Shown here: positions 963-44,329 of the stretch, piece after piece
Numbering within the stretch: position 1 is the stretch's first letter
Layout of the letters: the number at the start of each line of letters is the position of its first letter
From: Escherichia phage ECML-10
DNA length: 64,000 bases
Strand: one strand, 5' to 3'
Sequence record: OL631479.1
Position numbers and translations under genes: made by a program
Notes under the pieces: generated by a model
Seen by the model: the letters and a program-made list of their open reading frames with translations, nothing else
The model's database searches: none
Told to the model about the DNA's origin: nothing

Positions 963-1467
963 AGCTGCCTCCTCTTCAAGTTATAGAAAAACTCACTGTA
1001 TCGCTTTGTAACGAGCTTTTCTATCAAACTGGTGCGATTGCATTACTTGGTATGGTTTATACAGCTGTGGAGCGATTTAGGGGCCTCATTATCCGTTTCC
1101 ACACATAAACTTTATCCAAACTCGCGCGGGAGTCTCTCAACCGACTCCTTACGGCGCTGGCAAGCTTTCGTCGGTGGCCCACATTAGTGCTCGGCCTTTG
1201 GCCTGCGCTATCGCTTCGCTCCCACACATGTTAACAGACCTGCATGTATGCACTTCTGTTATTGTGTGCACTATGGAGGCCCGGCATCTCGCCCCCTCGT
1301 AGGCGAGTGCCAATGAAGGGCCGACACTACCTATAGAAAGTAATAAATTTAAAACATGGTACTTAGGATCTAGTATATTCTACATAAGTTAAGTATATGT
1401 ACTTAGTACCATAAGTACTAGATCTTTTATTTTTTATTATTTAGTTATTTTAGTTATATTCTTTATG

Positions 1468-1548
1468 TGTCCGTATCACGGACAGTTAGTGTCCGTATTA
1501 CGGGCAGATGTGTCCGCGTGACGGACAGTAGTGTCCGTATCACGGACA
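1468..1548. promoter_or_regulatory. array of four 17-bp palindromic operator-like sites (TGTCCGTATCACGGACA and variants)
   Basis: Copies at 1468-1484, 1490-1506, 1511-1527, 1532-1548; centre-to-centre 21-22 bp. Confidence 0.6.
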
Positions 1549-1623
1549 GTTACTAGCCTCTGTTCCAGGGCGAACATAAAACATACGAATCCTTATAGTA
1601 CAGATATTTAAGTTTTTACTGGT

Positions 1624-1974
1624 CTAACCAGTTGTTGACATCCGAATAACTTCTTCTGGTGGCAAAACTTTGGAAAATGTGCATCTTTTACCTCTCCCTT
1701 GTGTGGATATTTCAACCACTCCCGCACATTCTAAAGTTTTAACGCACGCTGCTGCTTTTGTTTTCTTTATCCCAACATCTGCTGCAATTTTCCTTGTGCT
1801 GGGTGTGAAGCGTGAATTTCCTCCAAGCTTATACCAGTTGTGCAGGTAGCAGTATACAATCTTGTCATACAAGTCAAGAACAACAACCTCTCCAGTTGTG
1901 TCATTCAAAACTTTTGACATAGACAGTATTTCAAGGGGGACTTTAAGATATAGCAGCTTATCCCCATCTTTCAT
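1624..1974 (-). CDS. putative DNA-binding protein (possible HTH)
   Basis: ORF track; SD AGGAGA before ATG at 1974; C-terminal RKIAADVGIKKTKAAACVKTLECAGVV resembles a helix-turn-helix; adjacent to palindrome array. Confidence 0.5.
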   Translation of the reverse strand: MKDGDKLLYLKVPLEILSMSKVLNDTTGEVVVLDLYDKIVYCYLHNWYKLGGNSRFTPSTRKIAADVGIKKTKAAACVKTLECAGVVEISTQGRGKRCTFSKVLPPEEVIRMSTTG

Positions 1975-2021
1975 ATCTCCTGATTCTCCTTGTGTGGCAA
2001 TTTTCTTTAAAATAGCAGGGA

Positions 2022-2576
2022 TTACTCCCCGCTGTCAATAGCAAGACTCATTGCAATACGGTATGCCTCTTCTAATGGTAAGAGTCTCCCCCACACATCC
2101 CAACCGACATCAAGCTGCCTGCCAAACAACTGTTGTGTGGTTCCGTGAGCATGACCGAACAGTTGGACTGATCCATGAGGCTTTCTGTTCCACTTTGCAA
2201 ACTGGTAATGGCTCATACAGATCAAATTCTTGTTGTGGCGAAGCTCGTAATAATCTACAACCTCGTGATAGAACTCTTTCATAATTCTGACAGTCGTCCT
2301 TGTGTCATGGTTGCCACGAACAAGAATAATATGTCCGTTCAACATATTTAGAATATCCGGGAGTAAGTTGTTGATATTCTTATCATTAGTGCACGCAATA
2401 TCTCCCAAGTGGAACACAGTGTCTGCAGGTGACACAACAGAGTTCCACTCGGCGATGATTCCTGCATTCATACTGTCAAGATTGTGATCATACTGAGATC
2501 TGTGTTTTTGACATGAATCAAACTCCATGACCCGCTGGTGGAGAAAGTGTGTGTCGCTTGTTACAAAGTATTTCAT
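2022..2576 (-). CDS. calcineurin-like metallophosphoesterase (protein/polynucleotide phosphatase)
   Basis: Start moved to internal ATG (MKYFVTSDTHF); motifs DxH, GDIACTNDKN, GNHD, GHAH typical of the family. Confidence 0.75.
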   Translation of the reverse strand: MKYFVTSDTHFLHQRVMEFDSCQKHRSQYDHNLDSMNAGIIAEWNSVVSPADTVFHLGDIACTNDKNINNLLPDILNMLNGHIILVRGNHDTRTTVRIMKEFYHEVVDYYELRHNKNLICMSHYQFAKWNRKPHGSVQLFGHAHGTTQQLFGRQLDVGWDVWGRLLPLEEAYRIAMSLAIDSGE

Positions 2577-2994: not shown

Positions 2995-3112
2995 AGCAAT
3001 CCCCCGTTTTAATTTTAATGATAGTATACCTAACTGTTTTGTTAATTTCAAGTGTTGACACTAGGTTGTTTGTGTGGCAGGATAGACTGACAAAATGACA
3101 AATGAGGAACGT

Positions 3113-41838: not shown

Positions 41839-41862
41839 CAAAATATCAAATTTAAGACACCT

Positions 41863-41890
41863 AGGACGCTCTGTGGCGTCCTTTTCTTTA
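41863..41890 (+). terminator. rho-independent terminator
   Basis: GGACGC-TCTGTG-GCGTCC followed by TTTTCTTT. Confidence 0.6.
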
Positions 41891-42051
41891 TCTGGTGCAC
41901 GATTGCATACCTTGGACAGATAATCTCCTTACAGAGCGTTTAAGAGCTTCCTACAAACAACTCTCTTTTTCGAGCGTAGCGAGAACGCACGTCCGTTTTG
42001 ACCCAAATCCCCATACGCTCGGATTTTAACCAAACCCTCGCGGCGTTTCTA

Positions 42052-42080
42052 TTGACACATTACCGCTCCAGTGATAGTAT
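42052..42080 (+). promoter_or_regulatory. sigma70-type promoter (TTGACA-17-TAGTAT)
   Basis: -35 at 42052-42057, -10 at 42075-42080. Confidence 0.45.
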
Positions 42081-42198
42081 CCACACATAGTTTGTAGAAT
42101 ATGGAATACACAATGAGAACATTGTCCGAAGTTTTAGTAGTGATCCTGATGATCATTACGTCCATAGCGGCTGTTGCCGGAATACTCACGGGTGGAAC

Positions 42199-42411
42199 AT
42201 GATCAACACGCATGCACCTGAAGAGACATCCGAAGGAGTGACCATATGTCCATTGTCTGAGCCAGTGAAAGAGGAAAACTTCGATTCTGAAGATTCTCCA
42301 TCTTCGCTCCAGGTAGATCCTGAGGCTGATGACCTAACGTGGGAAGACATCGTAGACATCTGGTTCTCCATTATGCCTGAGCACGAAGAGTTCAGAGGTG
42401 GTAGACTATGA
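42199..42411 (+). CDS. hypothetical acidic protein (70 aa)
   Basis: ORF track; weak SD. Confidence 0.4.
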   Translation: MINTHAPEETSEGVTICPLSEPVKEENFDSEDSPSSLQVDPEADDLTWEDIVDIWFSIMPEHEEFRGGRL

Positions 42412-42532
42412 AGCACCGAGCCCACACAGGTTCCTCATGCTAAAGCATGGCCTGAAGAGGCAAACGTGTATAATTCCAGTGCATTGGAACGTATAAAACC
42501 CTGTTCACACTCTCATTTCCAGAGGAGATTTC

Positions 42533-42748
42533 ATGAAGATAGAAATATTTGGTGGAGCTGACAACACTCGTGGCCTGATTTACCTTGAATTCGATGAAAC
42601 ATACCTGCCAGAGGTGTTAAATATAGACTCTGTTGCTGAGGCTTTGGGAGTAAACCCTAAAGAACTCCACTCTTGTGCTGAGATCGATGGTTGGGAAGAG
42701 ACCATGAACATTGATTTCAGTGAAGTAGAGGATGAACCGCTGGACTGA
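42533..42748 (+). CDS. small acidic protein, MK(V/I)K family member
   Basis: MKIEIFGG start; SD GGAGA. Confidence 0.5.
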   Translation: MKIEIFGGADNTRGLIYLEFDETYLPEVLNIDSVAEALGVNPKELHSCAEIDGWEETMNIDFSEVEDEPLD

Positions 42749-44329
42749 CACACAATTAGCTGCCCGGCTAAAGTGCTGGAAGCACCTATAACACATCTTT
42801 CAACTAAATTTCCCACCACCACAATCACTTACCTCCCACACATGACTGTTTGCTTGTTTAGTGAGCAGTCATGCCTTGACATTCTTGCCTATCCTGATAA
42901 AATTAAGTTCTTCTCTTTTCTTTTACCGAGTAATTCGGGTTTTCTGTTCTCTTCGGTTTGAAGGGGTATGGAGATACACCTGAGTGAACAGGGTGAACAA
43001 CCGAACATTTGGCTATGGCATTAGCATGGCGAAGCGGACGGGTGACGAAAGAGGGGCCGGAGGACACCAGTCACTGCCATATGATATATGGGTGATAACC
43101 TGAAGAGTCTGAATAAGTGTTTAAGTACCAGTCAGAGGAAAAGGTGAATGGTAGCCGAAGGGGGAGGGGGTTTCTTGTATCTTTAATTTGTATATTATGT
43201 ATACATTCGTAAACCAATCTCATCTGAATCTGTTTACCACACAAAGTGGATAGAGACAAATATTACCTATTAAACTTGAATTATTTATAGAAAATACTAC
43301 AACACTACTTAAGTATTTGATTTTACACACAAATCCTGCAGATATTCACCCCCCATATTTAACATACTTGTAACATATTCCATACTCTACCTGACCGATC
43401 AACTCACCCAACTACATCCTCCATATTTCCCCTGTCTGTACTACCCCTGCCCAGCCGGGAGTCCCGTCATATCTGGCTTTCCAGCAAATATCACACCCAC
43501 AAATATCATTGCCTGAAGAGGGTTTCATCCCATAATACATGCCTTACCTGAAGAGCGCTTCATATACCCCGTAAATTTTTTAATTGACACCCTCCCCGCC
43601 GCCGGAGGGGGTTGGCTTTTCCCACACAGACCCGAAGAGCCAGCCAGAAATATCTGAACAGGTCCAGCTATGCCACGATTTTGACCTGACCTACAGGAGT
43701 GCTTCCCTGTCAGGAGCCGGTAGCGACTGGAGTGCTGCCAGGCGGACGAAATGGGAATACTTCTCATTCTTATAATAATTCTCAAATATCGAGGCAGTGA
43801 GGCAAATTAATAGGTGAGGCCGTTCACACAGTGGCACAACATTTGCAACCTATCTTGTGTGGGGGAATGAGAATACCTATCATTGTGAGAATAGTTATCA
43901 TTACGGGCAATTTAACATAATACCCATTATGCGCACCACTGGCGATCCATACAGGGATTGATAACATGAGTTACTGTTTATGCATATAACAATTATATTT
44001 CTTACTATTTGTGTGGGATATAGTTAGCAGCCAATAGATTAGATATTGACCTGTAGACTTCTGACCGTCCAGACGTCTAAACGCCCACACAACAAGGCTT
44101 ATACATACATCGCTGAATGTAAACAGGGCCGCAAAAATGCTACCATACCAGATTGTAAATTTTTCATACAGCACTTGACAAAGAGGAGAAAAACTTGTCT
44201 GACACTTTAGACACAATAGTGACATAATGGTGACACACTGGGCATACTCAACACACTGGATACAATAACAGTTGTTACTATTGCATGCTTCACTGTTCAC
44301 GTATAGATTGTTTACACAGAGATGATAAG

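What the first reader, a model, noticed from the sequence alone, without database searches (positions are those of the whole stretch)
1468..1548. Four evenly spaced 17-bp palindromes forming an operator-like array
TGTCCGTATCACGGACA (twice exact, two variants) recurs at 21-22 bp spacing, about two helical turns, which would put four dimer-binding sites on one face of the DNA. The array lies in a 660-bp ORF-free region just downstream of a small gene (1624-1974) whose product has a helix-turn-helix-like segment. Candidate roles are cooperative repressor binding, a replication-origin iteron set or a packaging site.
Basis: seen in the sequence. Interest (0 to 1): 0.7.

Follow-up and report, generated by a model that had tools for sequence, protein, structure and literature searches.

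The report
Probable phage replication origin: iterons plus initiator
Four evenly spaced palindromes next to the most easily melted DNA in the window, just after a small gene resembling the DNA-binding half of plasmid and satellite replication initiators, are probably a replication origin of rV5-like E. coli phages, whose origin has never been mapped.

Summary
Four TGTCCG-N5-CGGACA sites sit at 1468, 1490, 1511 and 1532, spaced 22, 21 and 21 bp. No other good copy occurs in the 64 kb.

The window is a Vequintavirus (rV5-like) genome. The array lies 75 bp after the stop codon of the rV5 gp075 orthologue (1624-1974, minus strand). It abuts the least stable 100 bp of the whole window.

The 116-aa protein is not a generic HTH. 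By sequence and predicted fold, its closest solved relatives are the N-terminal DNA-binding domains of V. cholerae PLE RepA and staphylococcal RepA_N initiators. These bind semi-palindromic iterons as dimers. It lacks their C-terminal domain.

Among relatives the array is the most conserved stretch of the locus. Changes fall in the 5-nt centres. In 17 unrelated viral contigs, arrays of the same motif sit inside wHTH genes; most of those gene families match replication-initiator (O-like) profiles.

Published transposon data for a 97%-identical phage show about 10-fold depletion of insertions in both gene and array. Neither is essential.

Best reading: an iteron origin with a minimal initiator (confidence about 0.6). 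An operator or roadblock role is the main rival. A packaging site is unlikely.

The parts
1624..1974 (-). Gene for a 116-aa winged-helix protein, the orthologue of rV5 gp075 and Bas54_0212. It is a RepA_N/PLE-RepA-like N-terminal DNA-binding domain with no C-terminal domain, and is the candidate iteron-binding initiator.
   Evidence: PHROG 12838 'replication initiation protein', E 2.5e-80. Pfam DUF6945 (27.1 bits, cut-off 28) and HTH_36 (24.5 bits, cut-off 25). PDB sequence search: 4RO3 at E 1.4e-6, and 1.3e-13 with a profile. AlphaFold model pLDDT 81; top Foldseek hits are 4RO3, 4PQL, 4PT7 and 5KBJ.
2009..2038 (-). Sigma-70-like promoter upstream of the gene. Its transcripts would run through the array and the AT-rich stretch.
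   Evidence: TTGACA-18-TATTTT with a TG extension. It corresponds to promoter P76 in the rV5 RefSeq record.
1549..1623 (.). Variable spacer between the stop codon and the array.
   Evidence: 24 of 75 columns vary among 11 distinct Vequintavirus sequences. It is unalignable in the 71%-identity orthologue.
1532..1548 (.). Site 1, nearest the gene: TGTCCGTATCACGGACA.
1511..1527 (.). Site 2: TGTCCGCGTGACGGACA.
1490..1506 (.). Site 3: TGTCCGTATTACGGGCA, with one half-site mismatch.
   Evidence: the site is TGTCCG in phage JEP1
1468..1484 (.). Site 4: TGTCCGTATCACGGACA. It abuts the AT-rich stretch.
1325..1467 (.). AT-rich stretch, the candidate DNA-unwinding element. It contains two GATC sites inside inverted 9-mers (GATCTAGTA / TACTAGATC) and two GTACTTAG repeats.
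   Evidence: It has the lowest GC of any 60-, 100- or 140-bp stretch in the 64 kb (19% over 100 bp). Nearest-neighbour dG is -102.2, against a mean of -132.4 with sd 5.9; the next lowest is -110.9. Repeats.
1020..1324 (-). Conserved GC-rich structured block. Whether it belongs to the origin is uncertain; it may be a non-coding RNA or a 5' leader of the next gene.
   Evidence: GC 55-58%. Fold z-score -3.1. Conserved consensus structure with several one-sided changes that keep pairing on the minus strand only, GC to GU and AU to GU. No Rfam match. Transposon insertions are tolerated here.

Best explanation
The array, the adjacent AT-rich stretch and the upstream gene together form an iteron-type replication origin module of rV5-like phages.

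**Proposed mechanism.**
- The 116-aa protein is a RepA_N/PLE-RepA-like winged-helix domain. It binds as a dimer to each TGTCCG-N5-CGGACA site, with half-sites one helical turn apart (inferred).
- The four sites are two turns apart, so four dimers lie on one face of the DNA and can assemble into a bent or wrapped nucleoprotein complex, as lambda O and staphylococcal RepA do (inferred).
- This would strain and open the neighbouring 140-bp stretch, the least stable DNA in the window. Transcription reading through from the promoter upstream of the gene would help (inferred).
- The protein has no C-terminal recruitment domain. The opened DNA is therefore presumably used directly by the phage's own gp4-like primase-helicase, perhaps with its PIF1/SF1B helicase. 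PLE RepA depends in a similar way on an SF1B helicase of phage ICP1, whose polymerase is among the closest homologues of rV5's (inferred).
- The origin is advantageous but not indispensable, so other initiation routes must exist.

**Shown here:** the anatomy, the protein's family resemblance, the selective constraint, and the shared fitness cost of gene and site.
**Not shown:** binding, melting and origin firing.
For: 1. **Protein family.** The best solved relative by sequence is 4RO3 (E 1.4e-6; profile 1.3e-13). 4RO3 is the N-terminal domain of PLE RepA, an experimentally shown initiator that binds semi-palindromic iterons at the PLE origin (PMC7145576). The predicted fold (pLDDT 81) matches 4RO3 first (TM 0.66). 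Staphylococcal RepA_N N-terminal domains and their iteron complex come next (4PQL, 4PT7, 5KBJ). All rank ahead of CodY and other generic winged-helix regulators.
2. **Anatomy.** pSK41 Rep uses a 120-residue N-terminal domain to bind four Rep boxes next to its coding sequence (PMC5703833). Here a 116-residue domain is followed by four boxes and then the least stable DNA of the 64 kb.
3. **Constraint.** Only 5 of 81 array columns vary among 11 distinct relatives: half-sites 1 of 48, centres 4 of 20, inter-site spacers 0 of 13. The adjacent spacer varies at 24 of 75 columns, and third codon positions of the gene at 40 of 117. A 71%-identity orthologue keeps TGTCCG-N5-CGGACA and the 21-bp period although the spacer is unalignable.
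4. **Other phages.** 17 of 17 unrelated IMG/VR contigs carrying tandem TGTCCG-N5-CGGACA have 2-7 copies at 20-25 bp. The arrays lie inside, or at the 3' end of, genes with an N-terminal winged helix. Most of these gene families hit PHROG 'replication initiation / O-like' profiles.
5. **Transposon data.** In Bas54/MaxBurger, 97% identical here, mean insertion reads are 13.6 in the gene and 18.1 in the ORF call covering the array. Flanking genes give 78-140 (10.1101/2025.11.20.689424). Cis site and trans factor thus share one phenotype. Polarity does not explain it, because the downstream genes tolerate insertions.
6. **No competing promoter.** No promoter-like site overlaps the array.
Against: - No binding, melting or replication data exist for this locus.
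- The protein lacks the C-terminal domain that is essential in pSK41 Rep and present in PLE RepA and lambda O. A bare DNA-binding domain is also what a repressor looks like.
- Gene and array are non-essential ('Intermediate' class; 17 of 20 and 4 of 7 TA sites hit).
- The GC-skew turning point lies 1.5 kb away, at the divergent promoters, and is explained by transcription direction.
- The same RepA_N-like domain is also used as a targeting module of nucleases (ICP1 Odn), so the fold does not dictate an initiator role.
- Homologues in sister genera have only one or two palindromes, at chance level. One distant homologue locus shows no array.
- In bacterial chromosomes the same motif also occurs in non-replication contexts, for example upstream of recA.
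Confidence: 0.6

Rival explanations
1. Operator or roadblock array for a transcription regulator. The 116-aa winged-helix protein binds cooperatively to the four sites at the end of its own operon. It would control read-through into the downstream genes and tRNA cluster, or a non-sigma-70 promoter in the AT-rich stretch, or act as an upstream activator of the GC-rich RNA.
For: - The protein is only a DNA-binding domain, and many GenBank records call it 'putative transcriptional regulator'.
- CodY, MarR and IclR-type regulators are the next-best sequence and fold matches.
- Gene and site are non-essential with a shared moderate fitness cost, which misregulation would also give.
- No terminator was found between the gene and the next one, so read-through is plausible.
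Against: - No promoter-like element overlaps or adjoins the array on either strand.
- Insertions in the downstream genes carry no cost, so loss of their regulation is an unlikely source of a 10-fold defect.
- The closest relatives over the full length are initiator domains, not regulators.
- Arrays of the same motif sit inside initiator-like genes elsewhere.
- The adjacency to the most meltable DNA of the window has no role in this model.
Confidence: 0.2
2. Another DNA-level role for the same protein-site pair. Candidates are a centromere-like or pac-like assembly site, a decayed remnant of a homing or origin-directed nuclease (winged helix plus T5orf172) with its target, or a decoy or protection site in conflicts with satellites.
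For: - The RepA_N-like domain is fused to GIY-YIG/T5orf172 nucleases in ICP1 Odn and in Salmonella phage SSE121 gp228, which sits at an analogous genome position. It is also fused in metagenomic protein P0013.
- There is a weak match to the centromere-binding protein TubR.
- Several assembly contigs end in the array.
Against: - rV5 is circularly permuted and the terminase operon is far away.
- The contig ends fall at different positions within the array.
- No nuclease domain or partition ATPase adjoins the gene.
- Strong purifying selection and a fitness cost argue against a decaying remnant.
Confidence: 0.1
3. The palindromes act as hairpins in RNA or single-stranded DNA, for example processing or attenuation signals or cruciforms, rather than as duplex protein-binding sites.
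For: The transcript of 1455-1560 folds at -44.6 kcal/mol, z = -6.6. The array lies in a transcribed 3' UTR or intergenic region.
Against: - The 21-22 bp helical phasing and the invariant inter-site spacers are not explained by hairpins.
- Natural variants TGCCCG...CGGACA give a C-A mismatch in the sense-strand hairpin.
- No compensatory changes are seen.
- In other phages the same arrays sit in-frame inside coding sequences.
Confidence: 0.05

Closest known systems
V. cholerae PLE RepA and the PLE origin (Barth et al. 2020, PMC7145576; structure 4RO3)
   Same: It is the closest solved relative of the protein by sequence and predicted fold. It is a dimeric N-terminal winged helix that binds semi-palindromic iterons in a non-coding region near its gene. 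It works with a phage replisome (ICP1) whose polymerase is among the closest homologues of rV5's.
   Different: PLE RepA has a C-terminal domain; the rV5-type protein stops after the DNA-binding domain. The PLE iterons have longer sub-repeats converging on a poly-A tract, whereas here 6-bp arms flank a 5-bp centre. PLE is a satellite, and this is the phage itself. Origin function is proven for PLE and not here.
Staphylococcal RepA_N initiators (pSK41, pTZ2162; 4PQL, 4PT7, 5KBJ)
   Same: A roughly 120-residue N-terminal domain binds four Rep boxes lying immediately after the sequence that encodes it. The domains oligomerise and bend the DNA. These are the second-best fold matches, aligning 106 columns.
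   Different: In pSK41 the boxes lie inside one long rep gene, and the C-terminal domain that binds DnaG is essential. Here a stop codon precedes the boxes and no C-terminal domain exists. Pfam RepA_N itself (PF06970) is not among the matches reported.
Phage lambda ori and O protein (from general knowledge; not tested here)
   Same: Four dyad-symmetric iterons are followed by an AT-rich stretch. Each is bound by a dimer of the winged-helix N-terminal domain of the initiator. The origin is activated by transcription running through it.
   Different: Lambda ori lies inside gene O, and the O C-terminus recruits P-DnaB. There is no detectable sequence relationship beyond weak PHROG 'O-like' links, and those are to the metagenomic array-bearing proteins.
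Metagenomic phage initiator-like genes with embedded TGTCCG-N5-CGGACA arrays (IMG/VR loci L012-L028)
   Same: The half-sites, the 5-nt variable centre and a 20-25 bp period are the same, with 2-7 copies. The associated proteins have an N-terminal winged helix. One group (L014 type, 133 aa) is also short, with four sites at the 3' end of the gene.
   Different: The proteins are only remotely similar to the rV5 one (hhalign 94% for the L014 type, 7-30% for the others). In them the arrays are translated as linker peptides. None has been studied experimentally.

Membership tests
RepA_N-type replication initiators (including PLE RepA / DUF6945) | N-terminal winged-helix DNA-binding domain of the RepA_N/DnaD-N fold | tested here: met
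   Profile search of the PDB: 4RO3 at E 1.3e-13. Foldseek on the pLDDT-81 model ranks 4RO3, 4PQL, 4PT7 and 5KBJ first, with TM 0.53-0.66 over 82-110 columns. Pfam DUF6945 scores 27.1 bits, just under its cut-off of 28, and PF06970 itself is not reported.
RepA_N-type replication initiators (including PLE RepA / DUF6945) | Tandem semi-palindromic iterons within or beside the initiator gene | tested here: met
   Four TGTCCG-N5-CGGACA sites at 21-22 bp, starting 75 bp after the stop codon.
RepA_N-type replication initiators (including PLE RepA / DUF6945) | C-terminal domain required for replication (recruitment of primase or replisome) | tested here: not met
   The ORF ends at residue 116 in all 118 phage records. 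In-frame read-through hits a second stop in the first palindrome. No separate gene resembling a C-terminal domain was found: the next gene has no match to the partner ORF of the L014 type or to any PDB chain.
RepA_N-type replication initiators (including PLE RepA / DUF6945) | The protein binds its iterons, and the pair drives replication | not testable with these tools
   Indirect support only: published transposon data show equal depletion of insertions in gene and array.
Iteron-type origin of replication (generic) | AT-rich DNA-unwinding element adjacent to the iterons | tested here: met
   1325-1467 is the lowest-GC and least stable stretch of the 64 kb, 5 sd below the mean stability.
Iteron-type origin of replication (generic) | Replication bubbles or a coverage peak initiate at the site | not testable with these tools
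   No time-course sequencing is available. The published skew analysis was uninformative.
Repressor-operator array | Sites overlap or flank a promoter that they control | tested here: not met
   No sigma-70-like promoter lies within 963-1623 on either strand. Phage-specific promoter types are not covered by the scan.
pac/cos packaging site | Defined genome terminus, or proximity to the terminase genes | tested here: not met
   rV5 is reported as circularly permuted. The terminase operon is at position 1 of the Bas54 map, about 130 kb from this locus on that map. Contig ends fall at different array positions.

The most novel reading that the evidence does not exclude
rV5-like phages start replication with an initiator reduced to the RepA_N-type DNA-binding domain alone. 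It marks and distorts the origin. The phage's own primase-helicase and PIF1/SF1B helicase then enter without any protein-protein recruitment domain.

If so, the replication module of the cholera-phage satellite PLE is a copy or mimic of the native origin system of this replisome lineage, which comprises ICP1 and the rV5 group. rV5-like phages would then be a tractable E. coli model for the open question of how RepA_N proteins actually trigger initiation.
Probability: 0.25. Interest if true: 0.7.

Novelty: new variant of a known kind. Interest (0 to 1): 0.55.

Why it matters
- **An unmapped origin.** The origin of the Vequintavirinae, a large group of broad-host-range therapeutic E. coli phages, is unknown. 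The rV5 genome paper tried skew analysis and failed.
- **Directly testable.** This locus gives a concrete origin-plus-initiator candidate. Published transposon data already show a matching fitness cost for the site and the protein.
- **How RepA_N proteins fire an origin.** An initiator consisting only of the DNA-binding domain bears on that question, which the PLE authors call unresolved.
- **A widespread iteron class.** The TGTCCG-N5-CGGACA arrays inside initiator-like genes of many uncultured phages suggest an undescribed iteron class.
- **Practical use.** The origin fragment could serve for phage-dependent plasmid amplification or phage engineering.

Tried and rejected
- **Known RNA families.** No credible Rfam family at 900-1700; the only match was rli43 at 26 bits against a cut-off of 100. 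No tRNA either.
- **Single-sequence AlphaFold model.** Useless at pLDDT 42. It was replaced by a model built on a 23-sequence alignment.
- **Close homologues.** They are confined to the genus. Only 5 clusters were found among 5.8 billion proteins, and 10 representatives among 1.8 billion, two of them spurious (Ig repeats, low complexity).
- **Small ORF over the array.** This ORF (Bas54_0213, MiataMamis CDS0240; 33 aa) was rejected as coding. Its N-terminal part changes freely, and in the 71% orthologue the frame relative to the palindromes differs.
- **Contig ends as a genome terminus.** Rejected, because the ends fall at four different positions within the array.
- **GC skew as origin evidence.** Rejected. 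The minimum lies at about 3050, at the divergent promoters, as the rV5 authors also concluded.
- **DnaA boxes.** Only one-mismatch boxes occur near the locus (700, 1112, 1702, 1958, 2903, 3172), a weak enrichment not pursued.
- **Palindromes in sister genera.** Mydovirus has one and Seunavirus two, both at chance level, so co-variation of protein and site could not be shown. The L011 homologue locus has no array.
- **A separate C-terminal partner.** Not found.
- **Per-TA-site transposon counts.** Counts for the AT-rich stretch are cut off in the stored supplement.
- **NCBIfam.** Nothing for the protein.

Full report
**What the window is.** Region 960-2000 is 97-98% identical to 118 phage records, all of the genus Vequintavirus (rV5-like E. 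coli myophages; some are deposited under other host names). Window coordinate x corresponds roughly to rV5 coordinate x + 63,684.

On the minus strand, an operon runs from a divergent promoter region near 3050. It passes through an AAA_33 kinase-like gene, a metallophosphoesterase and a 116-aa gene (1624-1974, rV5 gp075). A 661-bp gap follows, then a 192-aa gene (384-962) and a tRNA cluster.

**The observation.** Four units of TGTCCG-N5-CGGACA lie at 1468, 1490, 1511 and 1532, spaced 22, 21 and 21 bp.
- Two units are identical, one has a half-site mismatch (CGGGCA), and one has a different centre.
- Half-sites recur every 10-11 bp, so all eight face one side of the helix.
- Shuffles of the window give 0.09 matches, against 9 observed. 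Outside the array only one 3-mismatch hit exists. The degenerate pattern adds only two 2-mismatch hits in 64 kb.

**The surroundings.** In the direction of transcription, the order is:
- the stop codon;
- a 75-bp spacer;
- the array;
- a 143-bp AT-rich stretch (1325-1467);
- a GC-rich (55-58%) block of about 300 bp;
- the next gene.

The AT-rich stretch is the lowest-GC 60-, 100- and 140-bp stretch of the entire 64 kb. Its nearest-neighbour stability is -102.2 kcal/mol per 100 bp, against a window mean of -132.4 with sd 5.9. The runner-up is -110.9. It carries two GATC sites inside inverted 9-mers, and two GTACTTAG repeats.

No sigma-70-like promoter or intrinsic terminator is predicted anywhere in 963-1623. 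The nearest promoter is upstream of the 116-aa gene (2038-2009, P76 of the rV5 record), so its transcripts should cross the array.

**The protein.**
- Pfam gives DUF6945 and HTH_36 just below their cut-offs. PHROGs places the protein in family 12838, 'replication initiation protein', and links it weakly to other initiator families.
- Against all PDB sequences the best hit is 4RO3, at E 1.4e-6. This rises to 1.3e-13 with a small family profile. CodY regulators follow at 1e-6, and staphylococcal RepA N-terminal domains appear near E = 1.
- 4RO3 is the N-terminal domain of RepA of the V. cholerae satellite PLE. That protein is a RepA_N-type initiator shown by EMSA and genetics to bind semi-palindromic iterons at the PLE origin (PMC7145576).
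- With a 23-sequence alignment the AlphaFold model reaches pLDDT 81 and pTM 0.76.
- Foldseek against the PDB ranks 4RO3 first (E 5e-6, TM 0.66, 110 columns). Next come pSK41 RepA NTD (4PQL), pTZ2162 RepA NTD (4PT7) and the RepA-iteron complex (5KBJ). Generic winged-helix regulators rank lower and align over fewer columns.
- The protein is therefore a RepA_N/PLE-RepA-like DNA-binding domain and nothing more. It ends at residue 116 in every record.
- In pSK41 Rep, the first 120 residues bind four Rep boxes that lie centrally in the gene. A separate C-terminal domain that binds DnaG primase is essential (PMC5703833).
- The rV5 arrangement looks like such a gene cut off after the DNA-binding domain, with the boxes now lying just past the stop codon.

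**Selective constraint.** I aligned 11 distinct Vequintavirus sequences.

| Segment | Variable columns |
|---|---|
| Array, whole | 5 of 81 |
| Array, half-sites | 1 of 48 |
| Array, 5-nt centres | 4 of 20 |
| Array, inter-site spacers | 0 of 13 |
| Spacer between stop codon and array | 24 of 75 |
| Third codon positions of the 116-aa gene | 40 of 117 |
| Third codon positions of the next gene | 52 of 193 |

- The array is thus the most conserved part of the locus. The pattern, fixed half-sites with free centres, is what a dimeric DNA-binding protein imposes.
- A metagenomic orthologue only 71% identical in protein has an unalignable spacer. It still carries TGTCCGTCACACGGACA, followed 21 bp later by the next TGTC, where its contig ends.
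- The only half-site variant seen is TGTCCG to TGCCCG.

**The same motif elsewhere.** A scan of IMG/VR for two adjacent TGTCCG-N5-CGGACA units found 17 contigs, none rV5-like (GC 49-70%).
- Each has 2-7 copies, 16 of the 17 at least three, at 20-25 bp (mostly 21-22).
- In all 17 the array lies inside, or at the 3' end of, an ORF with an N-terminal winged helix. The array is translated as a repetitive linker.
- Most of these protein families hit PHROG 'replication initiation protein' or 'replication initiation O-like' profiles, namely 270, 345, 391, 678 and 16167. These include profile 270, which gp075 hits weakly.
- One family (L014 type, 133 aa) is short, like gp075, with four sites at its 3' end. 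It is detectably related to gp075 (hhalign 94%). The others are too distant to call.
- This is the lambda O and pSK41 layout of an origin inside the initiator gene. It is the strongest comparative argument that such arrays are iterons.

A caveat comes from the scan of bacterial genomes, which found 37 more loci.
- Some are again inside winged-helix genes (Actinoplanes, Treponema, Kiritimatiellae, Parachlamydiaceae).
- Others are intergenic with a strict 20-bp period. Examples lie between recA and a ComM-like gene in a Kofleriaceae MAG, and in several Burkholderiales.
- The motif by itself is therefore not diagnostic of an origin.

**Relatives in sister genera.**
- Klebsiella phage VLCpiM5b (Mydovirus) has a 105-aa remote homologue: BLASTP E 8e-6, hhalign 96.7%, DUF6945 above its cut-off.
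- That homologue lies beside an AT-rich divergent intergenic region.
- Salmonella phage SSE121 (Seunavirus) has, at the corresponding place, a 186-aa protein with a weakly similar winged helix fused to a T5orf172/GIY-YIG-type nuclease domain.
- Both intergenic regions contain AAGATCT boxes resembling those of the window's AT-rich stretch.
- They hold different palindromes: TGCTCAA-T-TTGAGCA once in Mydovirus, and ATTCCC-N4-GGGAAT twice in Seunavirus. These counts are at chance level.
- I therefore treat this as suggestive only.

A tblastn search with the 4RO3 sequence finds ICP1 gp88 (Odn) first and the rV5-like genes second. Odn is a nuclease that borrowed the RepA DNA-binding domain to cut the PLE origin (PMC8263062). 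The domain is therefore a portable iteron-recognition module used by both initiators and nucleases. This limits what the fold alone can prove.

**Experimental data already published.** HIDEN-SEQ transposon mapping of Bas54 (phage MaxBurger, 97.2% identical here) gives the following (10.1101/2025.11.20.689424).

| Bas54 feature | Window equivalent | TA sites hit | Class | Mean reads |
|---|---|---|---|---|
| bas54_0211 | phosphoesterase | 26 of 27 | Non-essential | 139.9 |
| bas54_0212 | the 116-aa gene | 17 of 20 | Intermediate | 13.6 |
| bas54_0213 | ORF call over 1476-1577, i.e. the array | 4 of 7 | Intermediate | 18.1 |
| bas54_0214 | 1232-1327 | 5 of 5 | NA | 134.9 |
| bas54_0215 | 1058-1228 | 4 of 6 | Intermediate | 78.4 |
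| bas54_0216 | the next gene | 31 of 34 | Non-essential | 139.5 |

- The protein and its presumed site thus share a roughly 8-10-fold depletion that their neighbours lack.
- Polarity cannot explain this, because the downstream genes are dispensable.
- Neither element is essential, so if this is an origin it is not the only route to replication.
- The GC-rich block tolerates insertions. It is therefore not required for whatever the array does.

**Interpretation.** The best-supported model is an iteron origin.
- Dimers of the RepA_N-like domain occupy four in-phase sites and form a higher-order complex. The adjacent, exceptionally unstable stretch opens, helped by transcription from the upstream promoter.
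- There is no recruitment domain. Entry of the replisome would have to rely on the phage's own gp4-like primase-helicase and PIF1/SF1B helicase.
- This echoes two facts about PLE RepA. It depends on an ICP1 SF1B helicase, and how RepA_N proteins start replication is acknowledged as unknown.
- The rV5 polymerase has ICP1's among its closest homologues, which makes the parallel less arbitrary.
- All steps after 'the protein resembles an iteron binder and sits next to iteron-like sites and a meltable stretch' are inference.

The main rival is a regulator with an operator or roadblock array. It fits a bare DNA-binding domain and non-essentiality. However, it lacks a promoter to act on, and it gives no role to the AT-rich stretch. 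It also does not explain a fitness cost when the downstream genes are dispensable. Packaging, partition, nuclease-remnant and RNA-hairpin readings are each weaker, for the reasons listed with the rivals.

**Novelty.**
- The rV5 genome paper reports that skew analysis failed to define an origin. Full-text searches found no paper linking rV5-like phages with iterons or naming an origin.
- Some GenBank records mark the array as an unannotated 'repeat_region'. RefSeq labels the gene 'replication initiation protein' by profile inference.
- The kind of system is well known. The variant, an initiator reduced to its DNA-binding domain with the iterons outside the gene, is not described.
- It fails one defining feature of RepA_N initiators, the essential C-terminal domain. 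I therefore file it as working like that family, not as a member.

Noticed in passing
window 1020-1335, minus strand: A conserved GC-rich block (55-58% GC in a 43% genome) with a stable fold (z -3.1). Its consensus structure is kept across relatives by several one-sided changes, GC to GU and AU to GU, that preserve pairing only on the minus strand. It has no Rfam or tRNA match. rV5 itself carries an 18-bp deletion of one hairpin arm. Transposon insertions are tolerated in Bas54. It may be a non-coding RNA or a 5' leader.
   Followed up: partly
window about 41,840-43,970: An ORF-poor region of about 2.1 kb between convergent gene blocks. [quoted passage not shown] It has no TGTCCG-type sites, no Rfam match and no striking repeats. 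It could hold an essential cis element, possibly another origin.
   Followed up: partly
L049 1017-1113 (Kofleriaceae MAG); also L045, L053, L055, L058, L065 (Burkholderiales MAGs): Bacterial chromosomes carry arrays of the same TGTCCG-N5-CGGACA motif at a strict 20-bp period with variable centres. One example has five copies between recA and a ComM-like gene. This looks like an operator-type use of the motif, unrelated to phage initiator genes.
   Followed up: partly
L007 1713-2273 (Salmonella phage SSE121 gp228): A 186-aa protein joins a weak HTH_36/RepA_N-like N-terminus to a T5orf172/GIY-YIG-type nuclease domain (PHROG 681 endonuclease, E 4e-18). The architecture is the same as the ICP1 origin-directed nuclease Odn. 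It sits beside an AT-rich intergenic region holding two ATTCCC-N4-GGGAAT palindromes.
   Followed up: partly
L010, L029, L030, L036 (Logan assemblies), at positions equivalent to window 1468-1548: Four independent metagenomic contigs end inside or just after the array, each at a different position. These look like assembly breaks caused by the repeats or the AT-rich stretch, not a genome terminus.
   Followed up: yes
L017 6490-6545: In a metagenomic phage with seven embedded TGTCCGGAAACCGGACA sites, the array is followed at once by three direct 11-bp repeats (TTAGACTCTTC). This may be an unwinding element of that origin.
   Followed up: no
window 700, 1112, 1702, 1958, 2903, 3172: Six of the 36 one-mismatch DnaA-box matches in the 64 kb fall in the first 3.2 kb, around the candidate origin. 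None is a perfect box, so the enrichment is weak.
   Followed up: no
window 1476-1577, minus strand: A 33-aa ORF across the array, annotated in some records, translates the palindromes into a VRxxD-type repeat. This resembles the linker peptides of the metagenomic initiator-like proteins. That fits descent from a longer gene with embedded iterons, but the resemblance follows from the DNA motif alone.
   Followed up: partly
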